Shown here: piece after piece, positions 25,990 through 31,224 of the stretch
Layout of the letters: every line of letters starts with the position of its first letter
Numbering within the stretch: position 1 is the first letter of the stretch
Assembly: GCF_000026545.1 (NCBI RefSeq)
Contig: NC_011601.1
DNA: 64,000 nucleotides
Direction: 5' to 3' (one strand)
Source of the DNA: Escherichia coli O127:H6 str. E2348/69
GTDB taxonomy: Bacteria > Pseudomonadota > Gammaproteobacteria > Enterobacterales > Enterobacteriaceae
Made by a program: the position numbers and the translations under genes
The notes under the pieces: generated by a model
Databases searched by the model: none
What the model was told of the DNA's origin: nothing
Seen by the model: the letters and a program-made list of their open reading frames with translations, nothing else

Positions 25990-26113
25990 CATCTCTCTGT
26001 GCGCAGTACTTCCTGTATTATTGTGGTGGCGGTCGATATTCGCACTGGCAAAAAAACGTGCTTGAATATTTGTTGAAACCCTTTAACAAAGCACAGGAGG
26101 CGTTGCGCGAACG

Positions 26114-26521
26114 ATGAACATTAGCGATGTAGCAAAAATTACCGGCCTGACCAGCAAAGCCATTCGCTTCTATGAAGAGAAGGGGCTGGTGACGCCGCCG
26201 ATGCGCAGCGAAAACGGTTATCGCACCTACACGCAGCAGCATCTCAACGAACTGACCTTACTGCGCCAGGCACGCCAGGTGGGCTTTAACCTGGAGGAGA
26301 GCGGCGAACTGGTGAATCTGTTTAACGATCCGCAGCGTCACAGCGCCGACGTCAAACGTCGTACGCTGGAGAAAGTAGCGGAGATCGAACAGCATATCGA
26401 AGAACTGCAATCCATGCGTAACCAGCTGCTGGCGCTGGCGAATGCCTGTCCCGGTGATGACAGCGCCGACTGCCCGATTATCGAAAATCTCTCCGGCTGC
26501 TGTCATCATCGGGCGGGGTGA
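26114..26521 (+). CDS. cueR: Copper-responsive MerR-family regulator CueR, 135 aa
   Basis: ORF track; N-terminal MerR HTH ([25 protein letters not shown]) and C-terminal CxxxxxxxC metal site. Confidence 0.95.
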
Positions 26522-27252
26522 TTAAGGCTTGCGAAAATAGTCGTCCATTATTTTCGTCAGCTCCGGACGTTCCCCGTCATCATTGATGGCAAAATCCAGA
26601 AAAAAAGCATCTGCTTGCGGCGTTCGGTTTTGCGCCATCAACCGGAAGGTGAGGGGGCCTGACCAGGTTTCGGATGGGCTGATGTGCTTATCAGGGCCGA
26701 AACTCTCCCATGCGTTGGGCGGTAATGTTTTGCACGCGGTGAGTTTTGGTATGTGGTATTGCAGCTCTGTTTTGTGCAGACATTCCCCGCCAGGAAATAC
26801 CAGGGTTTGTTGCTCATCATTAAAATGGGTTGCCGTGCTGAGCACCAGTGTTTTGAGCGGTCGCCCTTCCAGCGCGGCGGCAGTAGCCTTATGGTGTCCG
26901 TCGAGCAGAACGCAGAGATAGGAATCAGGGAGATACCAGGCCAGAGCGCGGGCGATTCCAGTTTTCGAGAGCAGACAAAAACCGGGCGGCTCCCTGTTCA
27001 TCCTCCGCAAAACCGCTGTAGACAAATTCCGCACAGGTAGGGCAATCAGCCTCGGACCAGAAACGTATTAACGGGACATCCTTGCCAGCAGAGCGAATGG
27101 ATAAGACCGTGCGAGTGCGGATCGTAAATCACACATTGACGCAGAAATCCTTTCCCGGACTTCACCGAAAAAATGACGCCCGCAGCGGTATTTTTCAGCA
27201 GACGTACTTCAGGTTTTCGAAAGGGGAAAAAGCATGGCCACTCCTTAGCCAA
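26522..27252 (-). pseudogene. Hypothetical accessory gene of about 240 codons, split by an apparent frameshift near 27046-27068
   Basis: Two adjacent minus-strand ORFs (27046..27252 and 26522..27034) in different frames; the downstream frame stays open up to 27067; no family confidently recognised; stop abuts cueR stop. Confidence 0.45.
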
Positions 27253-27323
27253 AATTTCAGTTCCCTGAACTGTGCCAGAAAATTACGCTGGTGACTATTG
27301 CTCTGGAAATGGAAACGGTGTCC

Positions 27324-27530
27324 TTACCCATTAATCCCCGTTTGCACCGAAAGAATATGCTGCAAACTTTCTACCATTATGCGCCCCGACTGAAATAAGC
27401 CTTCCTGGATTTCGTTGTTAACATTCACAGCGTGAACCAGGGAGGCTAATAACACCACTTGCAAGAAGGCAAAAATAAACGCACCGATAATCATAATATG
27501 CGTCAGGGGGATTTTCCTTTGCTCCTTCAT
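27324..27530 (-). CDS. Small single-pass membrane protein (68 aa), hypothetical
   Basis: ORF track; one hydrophobic helix IIGAFIFAFLQVVLLASLV; start overlaps the stop of the upstream lipoprotein gene by 4 bp. Confidence 0.5.
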   Translation of the reverse strand: MKEQRKIPLTHIMIIGAFIFAFLQVVLLASLVHAVNVNNEIQEGLFQSGRIMVESLQHILSVQTGING

Positions 27531-27949
27531 TTTAAATAACCCACAAACTGGCCTTCTTTCATTAAGGCGACTTTTCCTGTGTGATGATAAACAATGACAT
27601 TATACAGACCCGACTGATAAACAGTAGCATCTTTATTGTCTTCATCAATTACACATAATGAATCATTGAGATAAGCAAAGTTCTTACTGCTCATTCTAAA
27701 GGTCATGCCAAATCCTTTATAAATGGCTTTCTTTGCCGCCTGGGCATGTTGTGCGGCTTCTGCATTTTTAAATGCCTGCGCCTCGGATGCACTTAAAATA
27801 GCCGTCTGACGCTGTTGTTCTGCGAGGTAACAGGTGTCATGGCTGACGCCCTGCGCCTGGCAATCTGCGATGCGGGAAGTGGGTGAACTACAGCCAGCCA
27901 GTAATATAACCGCCAGCAGGGAAAACGATTTAATGGAGCTATTCATCAT
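27527..27949 (-). CDS. Predicted lipoprotein (140 aa), hypothetical
   Basis: ORF track; signal peptide with lipobox LLAGC followed by S at +2; not a K-12 core protein I recognise. Confidence 0.6.
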   Translation of the reverse strand: MMNSSIKSFSLLAVILLAGCSSPTSRIADCQAQGVSHDTCYLAEQQRQTAILSASEAQAFKNAEAAQHAQAAKKAIYKGFGMTFRMSSKNFAYLNDSLCVIDEDNKDATVYQSGLYNVIVYHHTGKVALMKEGQFVGYLK

Positions 27950-28002
27950 TGTTAACCTTAAATAATGTGCGGAAAATTGCGAATAAGAAATTGCTGTTAA
28001 AA

Positions 28003-29019
28003 TTAGAACGAATATCCCACGCCGACACCCGCACCGAAATCAGATTGTGTATCCGCAGAAATACCTGCTTTAAGTACCGTATGCGTTCCGGCATTAAAAG
28101 ATGTTCCGACAGACACCGCAGATTCACCGTTAAAGGTTCCCGCTCCCGCTGAGACCATCATCAAGTCACCGGTTTTCACCTGTGGTTGTGAGGCGATAGC
28201 GATGGCAGATGCAGTTCCCGCATTGGCTTCTTTACGATTGTCCTCAACTTCGTTTTTTAGCGAACTGAAATGGTTATTGAGCGTGTTAATTTGCTGGCTG
28301 TTATCTGCAACCCGTTTTTGGGTGTTGGTTAACTGTTGCTGCGTTTGTGCGGAATCTTGTCTCAGACTTTCAATTTGCTCATGTGCCTGGACAGACTTCT
28401 GCGCCAGACTTTGCATTTGTTTATCGTATTGAGCCCTTTCTTTTTGCTGTTGTGCTGCCACATCGGTTGTCAGTGCATTCATTTTCTGCCCTTGTTCCGT
28501 GGTAGTGCGCTGATTAGCCTCATTTTGAGCCGCCAGCCTGGCATTAATCATCTCCTGATAATGCGCGGTATTTTGCGTATCTCCAGTCGCGGCGAGCGTT
28601 TTTTGTGTGGCTACGATCTGCGCCTGTTGCTCTGTAATTTGCGTTTGCTGGGCATCAGTTACCGTAGACTGTCGGGCGTTGATCATGCTCTGATAACGGG
28701 CGGTTGTCTGTACATCACCTGTAGCGGCAACGGTTTTTTGTCCTGCGTCAGGATCTGTCTGGACAGGGGGAGTCTGAGTGGTATCAGGTGTTTCAGAAGG
28801 GATGTAGTGATGTTCAGTCAAATAGGTATATGCAGCGGGGCTGTTGTCGGTGCGTTCTAAAAAGCGGGTAATCTTCTGCTCAATCTCCGATTGCGACATG
28901 CCCGAGTTAATGGCTGAAAGCTCTGTTGCCGCCGCTTCAATGGTATCACCAGCTAAAACAAAAGGGCTGGATGTTGCTGAAATTATGAGTGCCAGTAAAG
29001 CTACGTTTACAGTTTTCAT
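28003..29019 (-). CDS. Short trimeric-autotransporter-like protein with YadA-type C-terminal membrane anchor (338 aa)
   Basis: ORF track; N-terminal signal peptide, Q/T/A-rich coiled-coil repeats, C-terminus ...GESAVSVGTSFNAG...GAGVGVGYSF resembling the YadA anchor and ending in an aromatic residue. Confidence 0.7.
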   Translation of the reverse strand: MKTVNVALLALIISATSSPFVLAGDTIEAAATELSAINSGMSQSEIEQKITRFLERTDNSPAAYTYLTEHHYIPSETPDTTQTPPVQTDPDAGQKTVAATGDVQTTARYQSMINARQSTVTDAQQTQITEQQAQIVATQKTLAATGDTQNTAHYQEMINARLAAQNEANQRTTTEQGQKMNALTTDVAAQQQKERAQYDKQMQSLAQKSVQAHEQIESLRQDSAQTQQQLTNTQKRVADNSQQINTLNNHFSSLKNEVEDNRKEANAGTASAIAIASQPQVKTGDLMMVSAGAGTFNGESAVSVGTSFNAGTHTVLKAGISADTQSDFGAGVGVGYSF

Positions 29020-29386
29020 TCATTTTCTCTCGATCAAAATAAGTTGCATTAATGTTTCTATAAGAAACAAATAATATTGTTATTAAGAAATAAAATACGT
29101 TGCAATATGATCGAAATCTACGCCGCCATTTGTGTGATGTAAAGCGCATTTTTGTCTGTTGTAAGCGTAAATATCACCAATAAGAAACAAAAAATGTTTC
29201 TTTTATAAATTAAAAAGGAAAACATTTCGTGCTCTTTCAATGTAAAAAAGAGTAAAGACTTGTTTTGATAAGCGAAATAAATTCTGTTTCTGGACTAAAC
29301 GTGAACCGGTTCCTGATGTGTGCTAAAATGCGTTTCTTTGATAAATCTCAATTTTTAAGAGGTTTACGCCAGGCAGGAACATTTAA

Positions 29387-29749
29387 ATGAATGAATTTGA
29401 GAAGATTTTTAATGAAATGAATCTGGACCGGGCATTGCTACCGATCCTTTTTCGTTCGAACCGGTCAACAGTGTGGAAGTATTTAAGCGGCGATAGTACG
29501 GCTCCTGCCTCAGCTATGTCACTGATTATGCTGTTGCAGTTAATCCAGAAACGAAACCCCGATCTATTAGCCGAATGGTTAACGCTTTCTGATTTCACCA
29601 TTCCGCCAGAAGTTTACCTGGACCAGCCTGATTACTGGAAAGGGTGGGTGTATACCCAACACAAGGTCAATAAAAACGTCCTGGAATATCTAAAAAAACA
29701 TTATCCGGATGAAGACCAAAAAAGTATGGGTAAAGGCCGGGAAGAGTAA
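29387..29749 (+). CDS. Putative HTH DNA-binding regulator (120 aa), hypothetical
   Basis: ORF track; HTH-like segment RSNRSTVWKYLSGDSTAP; divergent from the autotransporter-like gene across a 370-bp AT-rich region. Confidence 0.45.
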   Translation: MNEFEKIFNEMNLDRALLPILFRSNRSTVWKYLSGDSTAPASAMSLIMLLQLIQKRNPDLLAEWLTLSDFTIPPEVYLDQPDYWKGWVYTQHKVNKNVLEYLKKHYPDEDQKSMGKGREE

Positions 29750-29754
29750 TTTTG

Positions 29755-29850
29755 CCTCTACTCGGCTATATGCCGGATGCGGCGCAAGCGCCTTATCTGG
29801 CCTACGATTCGGGCATATTTTGTAGGCATGATAAGACGCGCCAGCGTCGC
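29755..29850. repeat. REP/BIME elements at the island-ybbJ junction
   Basis: gccggatgcggcgcaagcgccttatctggcctac and gcgacgctggcgcgtcttatcatgcctac (revcomp) between 29749 and the ybbJ stop. Confidence 0.65.
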
Positions 29851-29851
29851 A

Positions 29852-30310
29852 TCAGGCGATGACCGCACGGATAATCAGCGTTATTCCTTCTATCGCAATC
29901 ACCTCAACATGCGTACCAGCGCCGAGATCCTCGCTGGCGCTGACAGGCCATGAACTGTCACCGACGCGCATATGACCGCGCCCGTTGACCAGCGGAGATT
30001 CCAGAACAAAACGTTGGCCAATCAACTGCTGCCCGCGCTGGTTTAAATGACTGTCGCTGTGCTTTTGTTCGCGCACCCGCCGCGACAACCATTTCCACCA
30101 CAGCCAGGCGGCGAGCAGCGTCAGGACGGCAAACATTACCCCTTGCCACTCCCAACCCAGCGGCAGCAACCAGACCACCAGACCGGTAATCACCGCTGCC
30201 ACGCCGCTCCACAACAGATAACCATTGCCGCCCAACATCTCGGCTGCCAGCAGCAAACCGCCGAGACTTAGCCAGAAAATATGTTGATGGACGACCATTA
30301 ACTCCATCAT
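29852..30310 (-). CDS. ybbJ: NfeD-like inner membrane protein YbbJ, 152 aa
   Basis: ORF track; overlaps qmcA stop; conserved NfeD-SPFH pair. Confidence 0.85.
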
Positions 30311-31224
30311 GGCTGAGTCCGTTTGTTGGCGCTGTCTTTCACCAGCTCAGCAATCCCGGCAATCGACCCCATCAGGCTGCTGGCCTCTAATGGCATCATC
30401 ACCACTTTGCTGTTACTGGACGAACCGATCTGCTGTAACGCTTCGGTGTATTTCTGTGCGACGAAGTAGTTCACCGCCTGAATATCGCCGGAGGCGATGG
30501 CTTCAGACACCATTTTGGTGGCGCGGGCTTCTGCTTCAGCGGAACGTTCACGCGCTTCAGCCTGTAAAAACGCCGACTGACGTTCGCCTTCCGCTTTCAG
30601 GATTTGTGACTGTTTTTCACCTTCGGCTTTGAGGATTTCCGCCTGACGGATCCCTTCCGCTTCAAGGATGTAAGCGCGTTTGGTACGTTCCGCTTTCATC
30701 TGCGCGTTCATTGAAGAGATAAGCTCTGCGGGCGGGCGCACATCACGAATTTCAATACGGGTGACTTTAATCCCCCACGGGTTGGTGGCCTCATCGACAA
30801 TATGCAGCAGACGCGAGTTAATGCTGTCGCGCTGAGAGAGCATTTCATCAAGTTCCATTGAACCCAGCACGGTACGGATGTTAGTCATAGTCAGATTGAT
30901 GATTGCCAGCTCCAGATTGCTGACTTCATAAGCCGCGCGCGGCGCGTCAATTACCTGAATAAAGCACACGGCGTCGATGGTAACGTTGGCGTTATCTTTC
31001 GAGATAACTTCCTGGGAAGGGATGTCGAGCACTTGCTCCATCATATTGATCTTGCGACCAATGCGATCCATAAAGGGCACCACCAGGCTTAGACCTGGCT
31101 GTAACGTTTTGGTATAGCGACCAAAGCGTTCTACCGTCCATTGATAGCCCTGCGGCACGATTTTGACGCCCGCGCCGACAATGACCAGCGCGACAAAAAT
31201 GAGAATCGGGATAAAGATAATCAT
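30307..31224 (-). CDS. qmcA: SPFH/band-7 (stomatin-like) protein QmcA (YbbK), 305 aa
   Basis: ORF track; SPFH domain plus KAEGE repeat tail. Confidence 0.9.

What the first reader, a model, noticed from the sequence alone, without database searches (positions are those of the whole stretch)
28003..29019. Unusually short trimeric-autotransporter-like protein with a YadA-type anchor and no obvious head domain
The last 70 residues resemble the YadA/Hia anchor, including a C-terminal aromatic residue. Upstream there is only a signal peptide and about 230 residues of Q/T/A-rich coiled-coil with internal repeats (ATGDVQTTARYQSMINAR and ATGDTQNTAHYQEMINAR). At 338 aa this is far shorter than UpaG, EhaG, Saa or Eib and seems to lack a head domain. 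It could be a minimal stalk-only adhesin or a scaffold.
Basis: partly seen in the sequence, partly recalled or inferred. Interest (0 to 1): 0.7.

Follow-up and report, generated by a model that had tools for sequence, protein, structure and literature searches.

The report
Short surface fibre published as regulator GmrA
The gene has every sequence hallmark of a short trimeric-autotransporter surface fibre, it is common in E. coli, and it is the same gene that a 2018 paper named GmrA and described as a DNA-binding activator of flagella, a role its sequence does not support.

Summary
The ORF at 28003-29019 (-) is real and encodes 338 aa. It has a Sec-type signal peptide, a conserved ~52-aa helical N-terminal domain, a Pro/Thr linker, a ~183-aa Q/T/A-rich helical stalk holding a 45-aa internal repeat, and a full-length YadA_anchor (Pfam E=1.6e-11) ending in Phe.

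No classical head, neck or ESPR motif is detectable.

The window is E. coli E2348/69. The gene lies in a 3.3-kb islet between cueR and ybbJ, which is O-island 29 of O157:H7. The islet is in 26% of complete E. coli genomes, and the 338-aa form is the majority allele. Longer alleles (436-586 aa) carry extra stalk modules.

The gene belongs to a cassette conserved across Enterobacterales. It comprises a divergent HTH-like gene, a headless autotransporter, a lipoprotein with an 8-stranded beta-barrel, and in Escherichia and Pseudocitrobacter a small membrane protein.

The parts
28003..29019 (-). [not shown]
   Evidence: ORF. RefSeq annotation 'YadA C-terminal domain-containing protein'. 322/338 identical to the O157 protein with no gaps. 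Published primers flank it exactly.
28951..29019 (-). Signal peptide, residues 1-23 (MKTVNVALLALIISATSSPFVLA|GD)
   Evidence: Hydropathy profile and the -3/-1 rule. The hydrophobic N-terminus is kept in all 21 aligned alleles. No dedicated signal-peptide predictor was available.
28795..28950 (-). Conserved N-terminal helical domain, residues 24-75; expected to form the distal tip of the fibre
   Evidence: AF2 helices 27-34, 43-56 and 61-69 with pLDDT ~78. 24 invariant columns within residues 24-75 across the alleles. Found on longer YadA-anchored proteins P0129 and P0132. No Pfam match.
28735..28794 (-). Pro/Thr-rich linker, residues 76-95, containing the junction where long alleles carry extra stalk modules
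   Evidence: AF2 pLDDT below 50 for residues 76-104. Composition. Least conserved region, mean pairwise identity 0.54. Alignment gap against long alleles.
28186..28734 (-). Q/T/A-rich helical stalk, residues 96-278, about 27 nm if a straight coiled coil
   Evidence: AF2 helices 103-145 and 148-276, with pLDDT block means of 66-96 over residues 111-270. Constant heptad register from about residue 187 to 278. PHROG 'adhesin' family 17426, E=5.8e-23, over residues 102-338.
28471..28740 (-). Two 45-aa tandem units, residues 94-138 and 139-183, each starting QKT(V/L)AATGD...YQxMINAR
   Evidence: 24/45 identical, 0 of 100,000 shuffles reach this. Between 1 and 3 such units in other alleles.
28006..28185 (-). 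YadA-type membrane anchor, residues 279-338. It has four predicted beta-strands and ends GVGVGYSF.
   Evidence: Pfam PF03895 over 1-60/60, E=1.6e-11. Alignments to the AtaA, Hia and YadA anchors, including the conserved ANAG(T/I)A pore-helix motif. Most conserved region, mean identity 0.94. Strand pattern.
29020..29386 (.). AT-rich 367-bp divergent intergenic region between the autotransporter gene and the z0640-like gene. It includes a sigma-70-like site at 29143-29115 (-).
   Evidence: GC 0.41. Promoter-like match, 9 of 12, but such matches are not enriched over shuffles. Sequence read.
27527..27949 (-). [not shown]
27324..27530 (-). Small membrane-protein gene (68 aa), overlapping the lipoprotein stop by 4 nt
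   Evidence: ORF coordinates. Hydrophobic stretch at residues 14-32, mean Kyte-Doolittle 2.65, after a basic N-terminus. Homologues in the same position in Pseudocitrobacter and other Escherichia species.
29387..29749 (+). [not shown]
   Evidence: Only sub-threshold HTH hints: MqsA_antitoxin 0.012-0.12, Xre-like-HTH 0.05, HigA-2 0.54. Conserved in divergent orientation upstream of the autotransporter in 9 loci from Escherichia, Pseudocitrobacter, Rahnella, Yersinia and Ewingella.
26522..29851 (.). The 3.3-kb low-GC islet between the convergent genes cueR and ybbJ (O-island 29 / S-loop 43). K-12 has nothing here.
   Evidence: Annotation. GC 0.41-0.45 against 0.53 in the flanks. cueR and ybbJ abut in K-12. 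O157 layout. OI-29 is described in PMC5826968.

Best explanation
The gene encodes a type Vc (trimeric autotransporter) outer-membrane protein of the headless, coiled-coil kind.

Inferred mechanism, from the established biology of the YadA/Hia family:
- The 23-residue signal peptide sends the chain through Sec.
- Three C-terminal 4-strand anchors are assembled by BAM into one 12-stranded barrel.
- The helix just before the anchor (ANAGTASAIAIAS) occupies the pore.
- The passenger is threaded out C-to-N to form a parallel three-stranded coiled coil of about 27 nm.
- A flexible Pro/Thr linker then carries a small three-helix domain at the distal tip.

The E2348/69 and O157 protein is the short, majority allele of a modular Escherichia family. 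In that family the number of stalk modules varies while the anchor and tip are kept.

The gene sits in a small transferable cassette with a divergent HTH-like gene, a downstream lipoprotein and a small inner-membrane protein. The lipoprotein is predicted to go to the outer membrane and has a small beta-barrel fold. It is the likeliest biogenesis or functional partner.

The protein most likely acts as a surface fibre in adhesion, autoaggregation or serum or immunoglobulin interactions, but its ligand is unknown.

This is the gene published as the transcriptional activator GmrA. I consider the reported motility phenotype real but indirect, acting through the envelope or flagellar assembly rather than through DNA binding by this protein.

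Shown here: the architecture, the homology of the anchor, the allele structure, the gene identity and the cassette conservation. Inferred: trimerisation, surface exposure, the lipoprotein's role, the adhesive function and the indirect route to fliA.
For: - YadA_anchor is the only significant Pfam hit in both the E2348/69 and the O157 proteins.
- Residue-level alignments to the solved AtaA, Hia and YadA anchors cover the pore helix and all four strands.
- The signal peptide, the C-terminal Phe and the alternating strand pattern are present.
- AF2 gives a long helix over residues 103-276, and the heptad register is constant into the anchor.
- Conservation falls from anchor (0.94) to stalk (0.74-0.80) to linker (0.54), with whole-module indels in the stalk. 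This is the pattern expected of a surface-exposed fibre.
- The island is in 1416 of 5426 complete genomes and the short junction in 1029.
- Gene identity with gmrA is proven by exact primer matches abutting the start and stop codons, in the window and in O157.
- The gene is transcribed in DMEM, RPKM 96 (supplementary table S3 of PMC5826968).
- A YadA-anchor gene lies directly upstream on the same strand of the lipoprotein gene in 13 of 26 species-level loci spanning at least 7 genera. In 12 of these the gap is 57-331 nt.
- The z0640-like gene is divergent in 9 loci.
- All 16 cassette autotransporters lack Pfam head and neck motifs.
Against: - Trimerisation and the 12-strand barrel were not modelled. 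Only a monomer AF2 run was possible, and its anchor has pLDDT ~30.
- No localisation data exist.
- Deleting the whole island did not change adherence of O157 to HeLa or Caco-2 cells (PMC5826968).
- About half of the lipoprotein homologues stand without an autotransporter, and deleting z0638 gave no motility phenotype.
- The published EMSA, ChIP-qPCR and fliA epistasis data favour direct DNA binding, and I cannot re-examine them.
Confidence: 0.85

Rival explanations
1. As published, the protein is GmrA, a cytoplasmic transcriptional activator that binds the fliA promoter directly and so switches on flagellar genes.
For: PMC5826968 reports the following:
- Deleting gmrA lowers motility and the fliA, fliC and motA transcripts, while flhDC is unchanged.
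- Complementation works with gmrA alone.
- An EMSA with competition shows binding to the fliA promoter, and ChIP-qPCR gives 7.75-fold enrichment.
- Epistasis places the effect through fliA.
- The same phenotype is seen in eight strains, including E2348/69.
Later reviews repeat this account.
Against: - No DNA-binding domain is detected in Pfam, NCBIfam, PDB sequences or Foldseek. Only sub-threshold coiled-coil noise appears, for example TMF_DNA_bd at E=0.08-0.16 and SMC at 20 bits against a cut-off of 567.
- The protein has a Sec signal peptide and a YadA anchor, and the anchor is the best conserved part.
- The passenger is acidic: pI 5.0, K+R 20 against D+E 30.
- Alleles differ by whole stalk modules, which is not expected of a transcription factor.
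- Judging from their primers, both biochemical constructs would disturb export: a vector tag ahead of the signal peptide in pET-28a, and 3xFLAG after the terminal Phe (inference).
Confidence: 0.06
2. The 338-aa form is a decaying remnant of a longer adhesin. It arose by an in-frame deletion and no longer has a function of its own.
For: It lacks the ~125-aa DRDxxQD...NTALMNG stalk module present once or twice in all the 436-586-aa alleles aligned except P0017/P0028, which lack the NTALMNG motif. That module is also recognisable in the Pseudocitrobacter relative, so it is probably ancestral. The E2348/69 islet also holds a frameshifted neighbouring gene.
Against: - The short junction is intact at 95% identity or more in 1029 complete genomes from distant lineages such as O157:H7, UM146 and E2348/69.
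- The reading frame, signal peptide, tip domain and anchor are all kept.
- The gene is transcribed and its deletion has a phenotype.
- Relatives that are even shorter exist, for example 293 aa in Enterobacter asburiae.
Confidence: 0.04
3. It is mainly an immune-evasion fibre of the Eib type, binding immunoglobulin or conferring serum resistance, rather than an adhesin for host cells.
For: The stalk and anchor (residues 102-338) match the phage 'adhesin' family PHROG 17426 at E=5.8e-23. I did not check whether that family includes the Eib proteins. Sakai annotators called the gene 'Saa-like'. In Eib proteins the immunoglobulin-binding sites lie in the coiled-coil stalk (own knowledge). The island deletion gave no cell-adherence defect. 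The island is enriched in bloodstream, meningitis and avian pathogenic lineages in the list of PMC5826968.
Against: Identity to phage-borne relatives is at most 39% and is confined to the C-terminal half. No binding motif could be tested, and there are no functional data.
Confidence: 0.12

Closest known systems
[not shown]
   Same: It is the same gene. The O157 protein is 322/338 identical with no gaps. The paper's E2348/69 deletion primers (gmrA-03) abut this ORF's start and stop codons exactly.
   Different: Only the interpretation differs. The paper treats it as a hypothetical protein with a 'putative DNA-binding domain' acting on the fliA promoter. The sequence shows a secreted, outer-membrane-anchored coiled-coil protein with no detectable DNA-binding domain.
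YadA / Hia / AtaA trimeric autotransporter anchors (Pfam PF03895)
   Same: A full-length anchor match. The pore-helix motif ANAGxA, four strands and a C-terminal aromatic residue are all present.
   Different: There is no beta-roll head, neck, Trp-ring or ESPR. At 255 residues the passenger is far shorter than those of Hia or AtaA.
NadA (Neisseria meningitidis) and HadA (Haemophilus influenzae biogroup aegyptius), short coiled-coil autotransporters
   Same: Small size and a passenger that is almost entirely coiled coil, without a YadA-like head (own knowledge; HadA reference Serruto et al. 2009 seen).
   Different: No sequence relationship outside the anchor was seen: neither appears among the PDB sequence hits. 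The helical tip domain and the Pro/Thr linker are specific to the enterobacterial family.
Eib and Saa adhesins of E. coli
   Same: E. coli trimeric autotransporters of moderate size (own knowledge). Residues 102-338 match a phage 'adhesin' family; I did not check whether Eib belongs to it. Sakai annotators labelled the gene 'Saa-like'.
   Different: Eib and Saa have head and neck regions and are carried on prophages or a plasmid (own knowledge). This gene is chromosomal, lies between cueR and ybbJ, and is headless. Saa did not appear among the 15 plasmid hits listed.
SadA-SadB (Salmonella) and AtaA-TpgA (Acinetobacter), autotransporters with a dedicated periplasmic helper
   Same: An autotransporter gene is paired in one operon with a small lipoprotein, and the pairing is conserved across genera. 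Both are lost together in K-12, as sadBA is.
Cha of the Haemophilus cryptic genospecies (Sheets and St Geme 2011)
   Same: Alleles differ in the number of tandem peptide repeats in the passenger. In Cha this modulates adhesive activity (title seen).
   Different: This is an analogy only. No homology was tested, and the effect of module number is unknown here.

Membership tests
Trimeric autotransporter adhesins (type Vc secretion) | C-terminal YadA-like anchor domain (Pfam PF03895): four beta-strands preceded by a pore helix | tested here: met
   PF03895 over 1-60/60, E=1.6e-11, and 2.6e-11 for the O157 orthologue. Alignments to the AtaA, Hia and YadA anchors. Four amphipathic strands.
Trimeric autotransporter adhesins (type Vc secretion) | N-terminal Sec signal peptide | tested here: met
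   The n-h-c layout with V-x-A before Gly24 is kept in all alleles. This rests on inspection and hydropathy only, because no SignalP-type tool was available.
Trimeric autotransporter adhesins (type Vc secretion) | C-terminal aromatic residue and beta-signal for BAM | tested here: met
   The protein ends GVGVGYSF, and this is invariant in 21 alleles.
Trimeric autotransporter adhesins (type Vc secretion) | Coiled-coil stalk running in register into the anchor | tested here: met
   AF2 helix 148-276 with pLDDT up to 96. The heptad register is constant from about residue 187 to 278, with 50-75% hydrophobic a/d positions.
Trimeric autotransporter adhesins (type Vc secretion) | Obligate homotrimer forming a 12-stranded barrel | not testable with these tools
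   Only single-chain AF2 was available. The anchor is poorly modelled as a monomer, with pLDDT ~30.
Trimeric autotransporter adhesins (type Vc secretion) | Surface exposure of the passenger | not testable with these tools
   This needs fractionation, protease shaving or immunofluorescence.
YadA/Eib/UpaG-type autotransporters with a classical head | Beta-roll head (YadA_head PF05658) and neck/stalk motif (PF05662) | tested here: not met
   No such hit even at E<=10 in the query or the O157 protein, and none among 16 cassette relatives. Precomputed Pfam for all listed homologues shows PF03895 only.
DNA-binding transcriptional activators (the published GmrA assignment) | A recognisable DNA-binding domain | tested here: not met
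   Pfam, NCBIfam, PDB sequence and Foldseek searches give only coiled-coil noise below every threshold.
DNA-binding transcriptional activators (the published GmrA assignment) | Cytoplasmic location | tested here: not met
   The sequence predicts export and outer-membrane insertion. Location itself was not measured.
DNA-binding transcriptional activators (the published GmrA assignment) | Specific promoter binding in vitro and in vivo | not testable with these tools
   Reported by EMSA and ChIP-qPCR in PMC5826968. Judging from the primers, the constructs carried tags at the signal peptide or after the C-terminal Phe.
SadB-type autotransporter export lipoproteins | Homology or shared fold with SadB/YajI | tested here: not met
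   [not shown]
SadB-type autotransporter export lipoproteins | Conserved operon partnership with an autotransporter | tested here: met
   Same-strand adjacency in 13 of 26 species-level loci, plus L004 and L005. The other half of the family is orphan.
SadB-type autotransporter export lipoproteins | Enhances surface display of its partner | not testable with these tools
   This needs co-expression and flow cytometry.

The most novel reading that the evidence does not exclude
The motility phenotype reported in eight strains is real and is produced by the exported, outer-membrane form of this fibre. That would make it a surface adhesin that positively couples to flagellar class II expression downstream of FlhDC, through the envelope. 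It would belong to a transferable cassette in which the co-encoded beta-barrel lipoprotein is a third, previously unrecognised class of autotransporter partner, after SadB and TpgA. In Yersiniaceae relatives an HTH-like peptide is fused ahead of the signal sequence, which hints that export of these fibres may be wired to gene regulation.
Probability: 0.15. Interest if true: 0.75.

Novelty: new member of a known kind. Interest (0 to 1): 0.55.

Why it matters
- **Published function.** A gene carried by about a quarter of complete E. coli genomes, including O157:H7, E2348/69 and lineages listed as neonatal-meningitis and avian pathogens, is listed in the literature and in reviews as a transcription factor. 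Its sequence says it is an outer-membrane fibre. If that is right, the GmrA model of direct fliA activation needs re-testing.
- **A missing adhesin.** E. coli would gain a further trimeric autotransporter beyond UpaG/EhaG, Saa and Eib, the only ones named in the review checked here. It would be a candidate surface antigen.
- **A gap in recent surveys.** The conserved pairing with a beta-barrel lipoprotein was invisible to a 2026 survey of autotransporter helpers, because that survey required a YadA head domain. Headless autotransporters and their partners are therefore an unexamined group.

Tried and rejected
- **Foldseek of the monomer AF2 model against PDB.** Nothing below E=3, only generic helical proteins.
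- **Rfam** on 26000-30400: no match.
- **Promoter and terminator scan.** Counts are no higher than in shuffles, so the sites named are only candidates.
- **Saa and Eib similarity.** tblastn of plasmids and phages gave only distant C-terminal matches of 39% identity or less, or 59% to an Enterobacter plasmid anchor. I therefore did not file the gene under Saa or Eib.
- **Literature.** Wells et al. 2010 and Totsika et al. 2012, which may already list this gene as an autotransporter, are not held. No held paper links GmrA with an autotransporter.
- **The paper's 'DNA-binding domain'.** I considered that it was the weak TMF_DNA_bd or SMC-type coiled-coil hit. Its figure S3B is not held, so this stays a guess.
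- **Lipoprotein as a dedicated helper.** I considered it a strictly dedicated helper and rejected that strong form, because half of its homologues are orphans.

Full report
**Where the window comes from.** The 2.5 kb around the finding is 100% identical to the chromosome of E. coli E2348/69 (EPEC O127:H6). RefSeq annotates the ORF at 28003-29019 (-) as WP_000859804.1, 'YadA C-terminal domain-containing protein'. It lies in a 3.3-kb stretch of low GC (0.41-0.45 against about 0.53 in the flanks) between the convergent genes cueR (26114-26521) and ybbJ (29852-30310). In K-12 these two genes abut with nothing between them.

**Checking the observation.** The ORF is as described: 338 aa, with an in-frame TGA directly before the ATG.
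- The N-terminus MKTVNVALLALIISATSSPFVLA|GD has the layout of a Sec signal peptide.
- The two quoted 18-mers are at residues 99 and 144. They belong to a 45-aa tandem unit with 24 of 45 identical positions; none of 100,000 shuffles exceeded 14.
- The last 60 residues match Pfam YadA_anchor end to end (E=1.6e-11), and nothing else in Pfam is significant.
- Against solved structures the only real hits are the anchors of AtaA, Hia and YadA, aligned over residues 244-337. The alignment includes the pore-helix motif ANAGTASA.
- The chain ends in GYSF.

**Anatomy.** A single-chain AlphaFold2 model built on 21 alleles gives:
- three short helices at 27-34, 43-56 and 61-69 (pLDDT ~78);
- a disordered stretch at 76-104, which includes the Pro/Thr-rich segment 76-95;
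- helices 103-145 and 148-276 (pLDDT up to 96);
- a poorly modelled anchor, as expected for one chain of an obligate trimer.

The heptad register is constant from about residue 187 into the anchor. So the passenger is not 230 residues of coiled coil. It is a small helical domain, a linker and about 183 residues of stalk. The stalk would be about 27 nm long at 0.148 nm per residue (rise per residue from general knowledge).

No head, neck or ESPR motif is found.

**Allele family.** The 120 best of 318 homologues are all from Escherichia where a source names the organism. They fall into short forms (325-345 aa) and long forms (436-586 aa).
- Long forms carry extra stalk between the linker and the first ATGD unit, in most of them one or two copies of a ~125-aa module (DRDxxQD...NTALMNG), and one to three ATGD...YQxMxxA units.
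- The same module is recognisable in a 633-aa relative from Pseudocitrobacter, so the short form is probably derived by deletion.
- Mean pairwise identity is 0.94 in the anchor, 0.90 at the stalk-anchor junction, 0.74-0.80 in the stalk, 0.74 in the N-terminal domain and 0.54 in the linker.
- The island is present in 1416 of 5426 complete E. coli genomes. The short junction is contiguous at 95% identity or more in 1029 of them, including O157:H7 and UM146. The short allele is therefore the normal E. coli form and not an oddity.

**Identity with a published gene.** In O157:H7 the same position holds a 338-aa 'YadA family autotransporter adhesin' flanked by a lipoprotein gene and a 120-aa gene. 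The O157 protein is 322/338 identical to the window's, with no gaps.

Sakai ECs0548 at this locus was listed in 2007 as a 'Saa-like protein' of S-loop 43 (PMC2323221).

Yang et al. 2018 (PMC5826968) describe O-island 29 as a 2,643-bp island with z0638, z0639 and z0640. They name z0639 GmrA, 'a transcriptional activator' of fliA. Their supplementary primer table settles which gene that is:
- The E2348/69 deletion arms (gmrA-03) match window 29020-29058 (-) and 27965-28002 (+) exactly. These are the bases abutting this ORF's start and stop codons.
- The O157 arms flank the annotated adhesin CDS in the same way.
- The cloning primer starts ATGAAAACTGTAAACGTAGCTTTA, which is the ORF start.
- The FLAG primer ends in the codons for GVGYSF.

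The finding's ORF is therefore gmrA itself, and that study deleted it in E2348/69.

**Weighing the two readings.** The paper reports:
- lower motility and lower fliA, fliC and motA transcripts in the mutant;
- unchanged flhDC;
- complementation by gmrA alone;
- an EMSA and a 7.75-fold ChIP-qPCR enrichment at the fliA promoter;
- the same phenotype in eight strains.

It rests the regulator idea on a 'putative DNA-binding domain' from the NCBI conserved-domain database. That figure is not held.

Against this:
- I find no DNA-binding domain by Pfam, NCBIfam, PDB sequence search or Foldseek. There are only sub-threshold coiled-coil matches, among them TMF_DNA_bd (E=0.08-0.16) and SMC (20 bits against a cut-off of 567). 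One of these may be what the database reported, but that is my guess.
- The passenger is acidic, with pI 5.0.
- The most conserved part of the protein is its membrane anchor.
- Alleles differ by whole stalk modules.
- From the primers, the EMSA protein was full length with its signal peptide behind a vector tag. The ChIP construct carried 3xFLAG after the terminal Phe that BAM substrates need (the consequence is my inference).

I conclude that the protein is a trimeric autotransporter. If the motility effect is real, it is most likely indirect. Because fliA is autoregulated and depends on hook-basal-body completion (general knowledge), an envelope effect could lower fliA without touching flhDC.

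Deleting the island did not change adherence to HeLa or Caco-2 cells, so no adhesive function has been shown either.

None of the held papers links GmrA to an autotransporter. The one recent review of E. coli autotransporters that I checked (2025) names only UpaG, EhaG, Saa and Eib.

**The neighbours.**
- *Lipoprotein.* Starting 53 nt downstream of the autotransporter stop codon is a 140-aa lipoprotein. It has the lipobox LLAG|C, Ser at +2 and two further conserved Cys.
- *Small membrane protein.* A 68-aa protein with one hydrophobic helix follows, and its gene overlaps the lipoprotein stop by 4 nt.

A scan of one genome per species with the lipoprotein profile returned 51 loci.
- Of the 26 loci with a full-length lipoprotein match, 13 have a YadA-anchor ORF directly upstream on the same strand. 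The gap is 57-331 nt in 12 of them. They come from Escherichia, Pseudocitrobacter, Enterobacter, Rahnella, Yersinia, Pantoea and Ewingella.
- No anchor ORF lies downstream or on the opposite strand in any of the 51 scan loci.
- The other half of the lipoprotein family stands alone. In one contig the lipoprotein and a small ORF sit directly upstream of qmcA-ybbJ.
- All 16 cassette autotransporters lack Pfam head and neck motifs, and 14 have a significant YadA_anchor.

A 2026 preprint that searched for autotransporter helpers required a YadA head domain, and it names only TpgA and SadB as known helpers. This headless group was therefore outside its dataset.

The pairing resembles sadBA, including joint loss in K-12. 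But the lipoprotein is unrelated to SadB, lies downstream and is predicted to go to the outer membrane. A helper role is an inference. Deleting z0638 gave no motility phenotype.

**Comparison and novelty.** By its defining features the protein is a trimeric autotransporter. Anchor, signal peptide, beta-signal and in-register stalk were all tested and met. Trimerisation and surface exposure could not be tested.

It works like the short coiled-coil members NadA and HadA rather than like YadA, Eib or UpaG. Its helical tip domain is restricted to a narrow enterobacterial group, with only 15 hits among 1.8 billion representative proteins.

As a sequence it is already annotated. As an autotransporter it is uncharacterised. 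As 'GmrA' it is, in my reading, probably mis-assigned. I rate it a new member of a known kind. Its interest lies mainly in the conflict with the published function and in the conserved lipoprotein partnership.

Noticed in passing
L017 4734-4860, L020 3750-3880, L022 4204-4330, L030 4136-4260, L023 4989-5120: In Rahnella, Ewingella and (weakly) Yersinia aleksiciae, the cassette autotransporter ORF has an in-frame ~42-aa extension before the hydrophobic signal sequence (for example ERNTQIIAAYIAGNTNKIELAHYFGVSASTIRRVL). It gives many sub-threshold hits, all to HTH regions: IS256 and CD3324 at 3e-4, and FixJ, sigma-70 region 4, CENP-B_N and HTH_28 at 2e-3 to 0.1. The E. coli gene lacks it. The true start codon is unknown.
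   Followed up: partly
[not shown]
   Followed up: partly
window 26020-26117 (+): Directly upstream of cueR, E2348/69 and K-12 keep about 95 bp of the 3' end of the HlyD-family type I secretion adaptor gene, with a 1-nt deletion. That gene is intact in O157:H7 (RTX locus). The RTX/T1SS locus therefore appears to have been lost by deletion in these lineages.
   Followed up: partly
window 26522-27201 (-): A frameshifted hypothetical gene lies between cueR and the 68-aa gene. It has no family match in Pfam-independent libraries. The 0.8-kb segment is present in 965 of 5426 complete E. coli genomes and is absent from the O157 version of the island.
   Followed up: partly
[not shown]
   Followed up: no
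L009 304-2873: In one enterobacterial contig a lipoprotein homologue and an overlapping 74-aa ORF lie directly upstream of qmcA (Band_7) and ybbJ (NfeD), with cueR next to them. This is the same neighbourhood as the E. coli islet, but on the other side and without a visible autotransporter. The contig ends 303 nt upstream.
   Followed up: no
L004 3706-5529: Pseudocitrobacter faecalis has a second autotransporter-like gene (608 aa, anchor-profile E=4e-28 in my script) between the first autotransporter and the lipoprotein. The whole cassette sits next to a large serine recombinase gene.
   Followed up: no
L020 3750-5933; L015 4321-5670; L030 4136-5866; L031 522-1565: Passengers of the cassette autotransporters vary widely. 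Rahnella rivi and an unclassified Enterobacteriaceae genome have long runs of TPQATPQ-type Pro-rich repeats. Ewingella and Enterobacter have collagen-like GKDG repeats (Pfam Collagen 9.6e-9).
   Followed up: no
L021: A record titled 'Chryseobacterium sp. 18061' carries a lipoprotein homologue with the same identity and coverage as Enterobacter sp. JUb54 (L019). This is probably a mislabelled or contaminated assembly.
   Followed up: no
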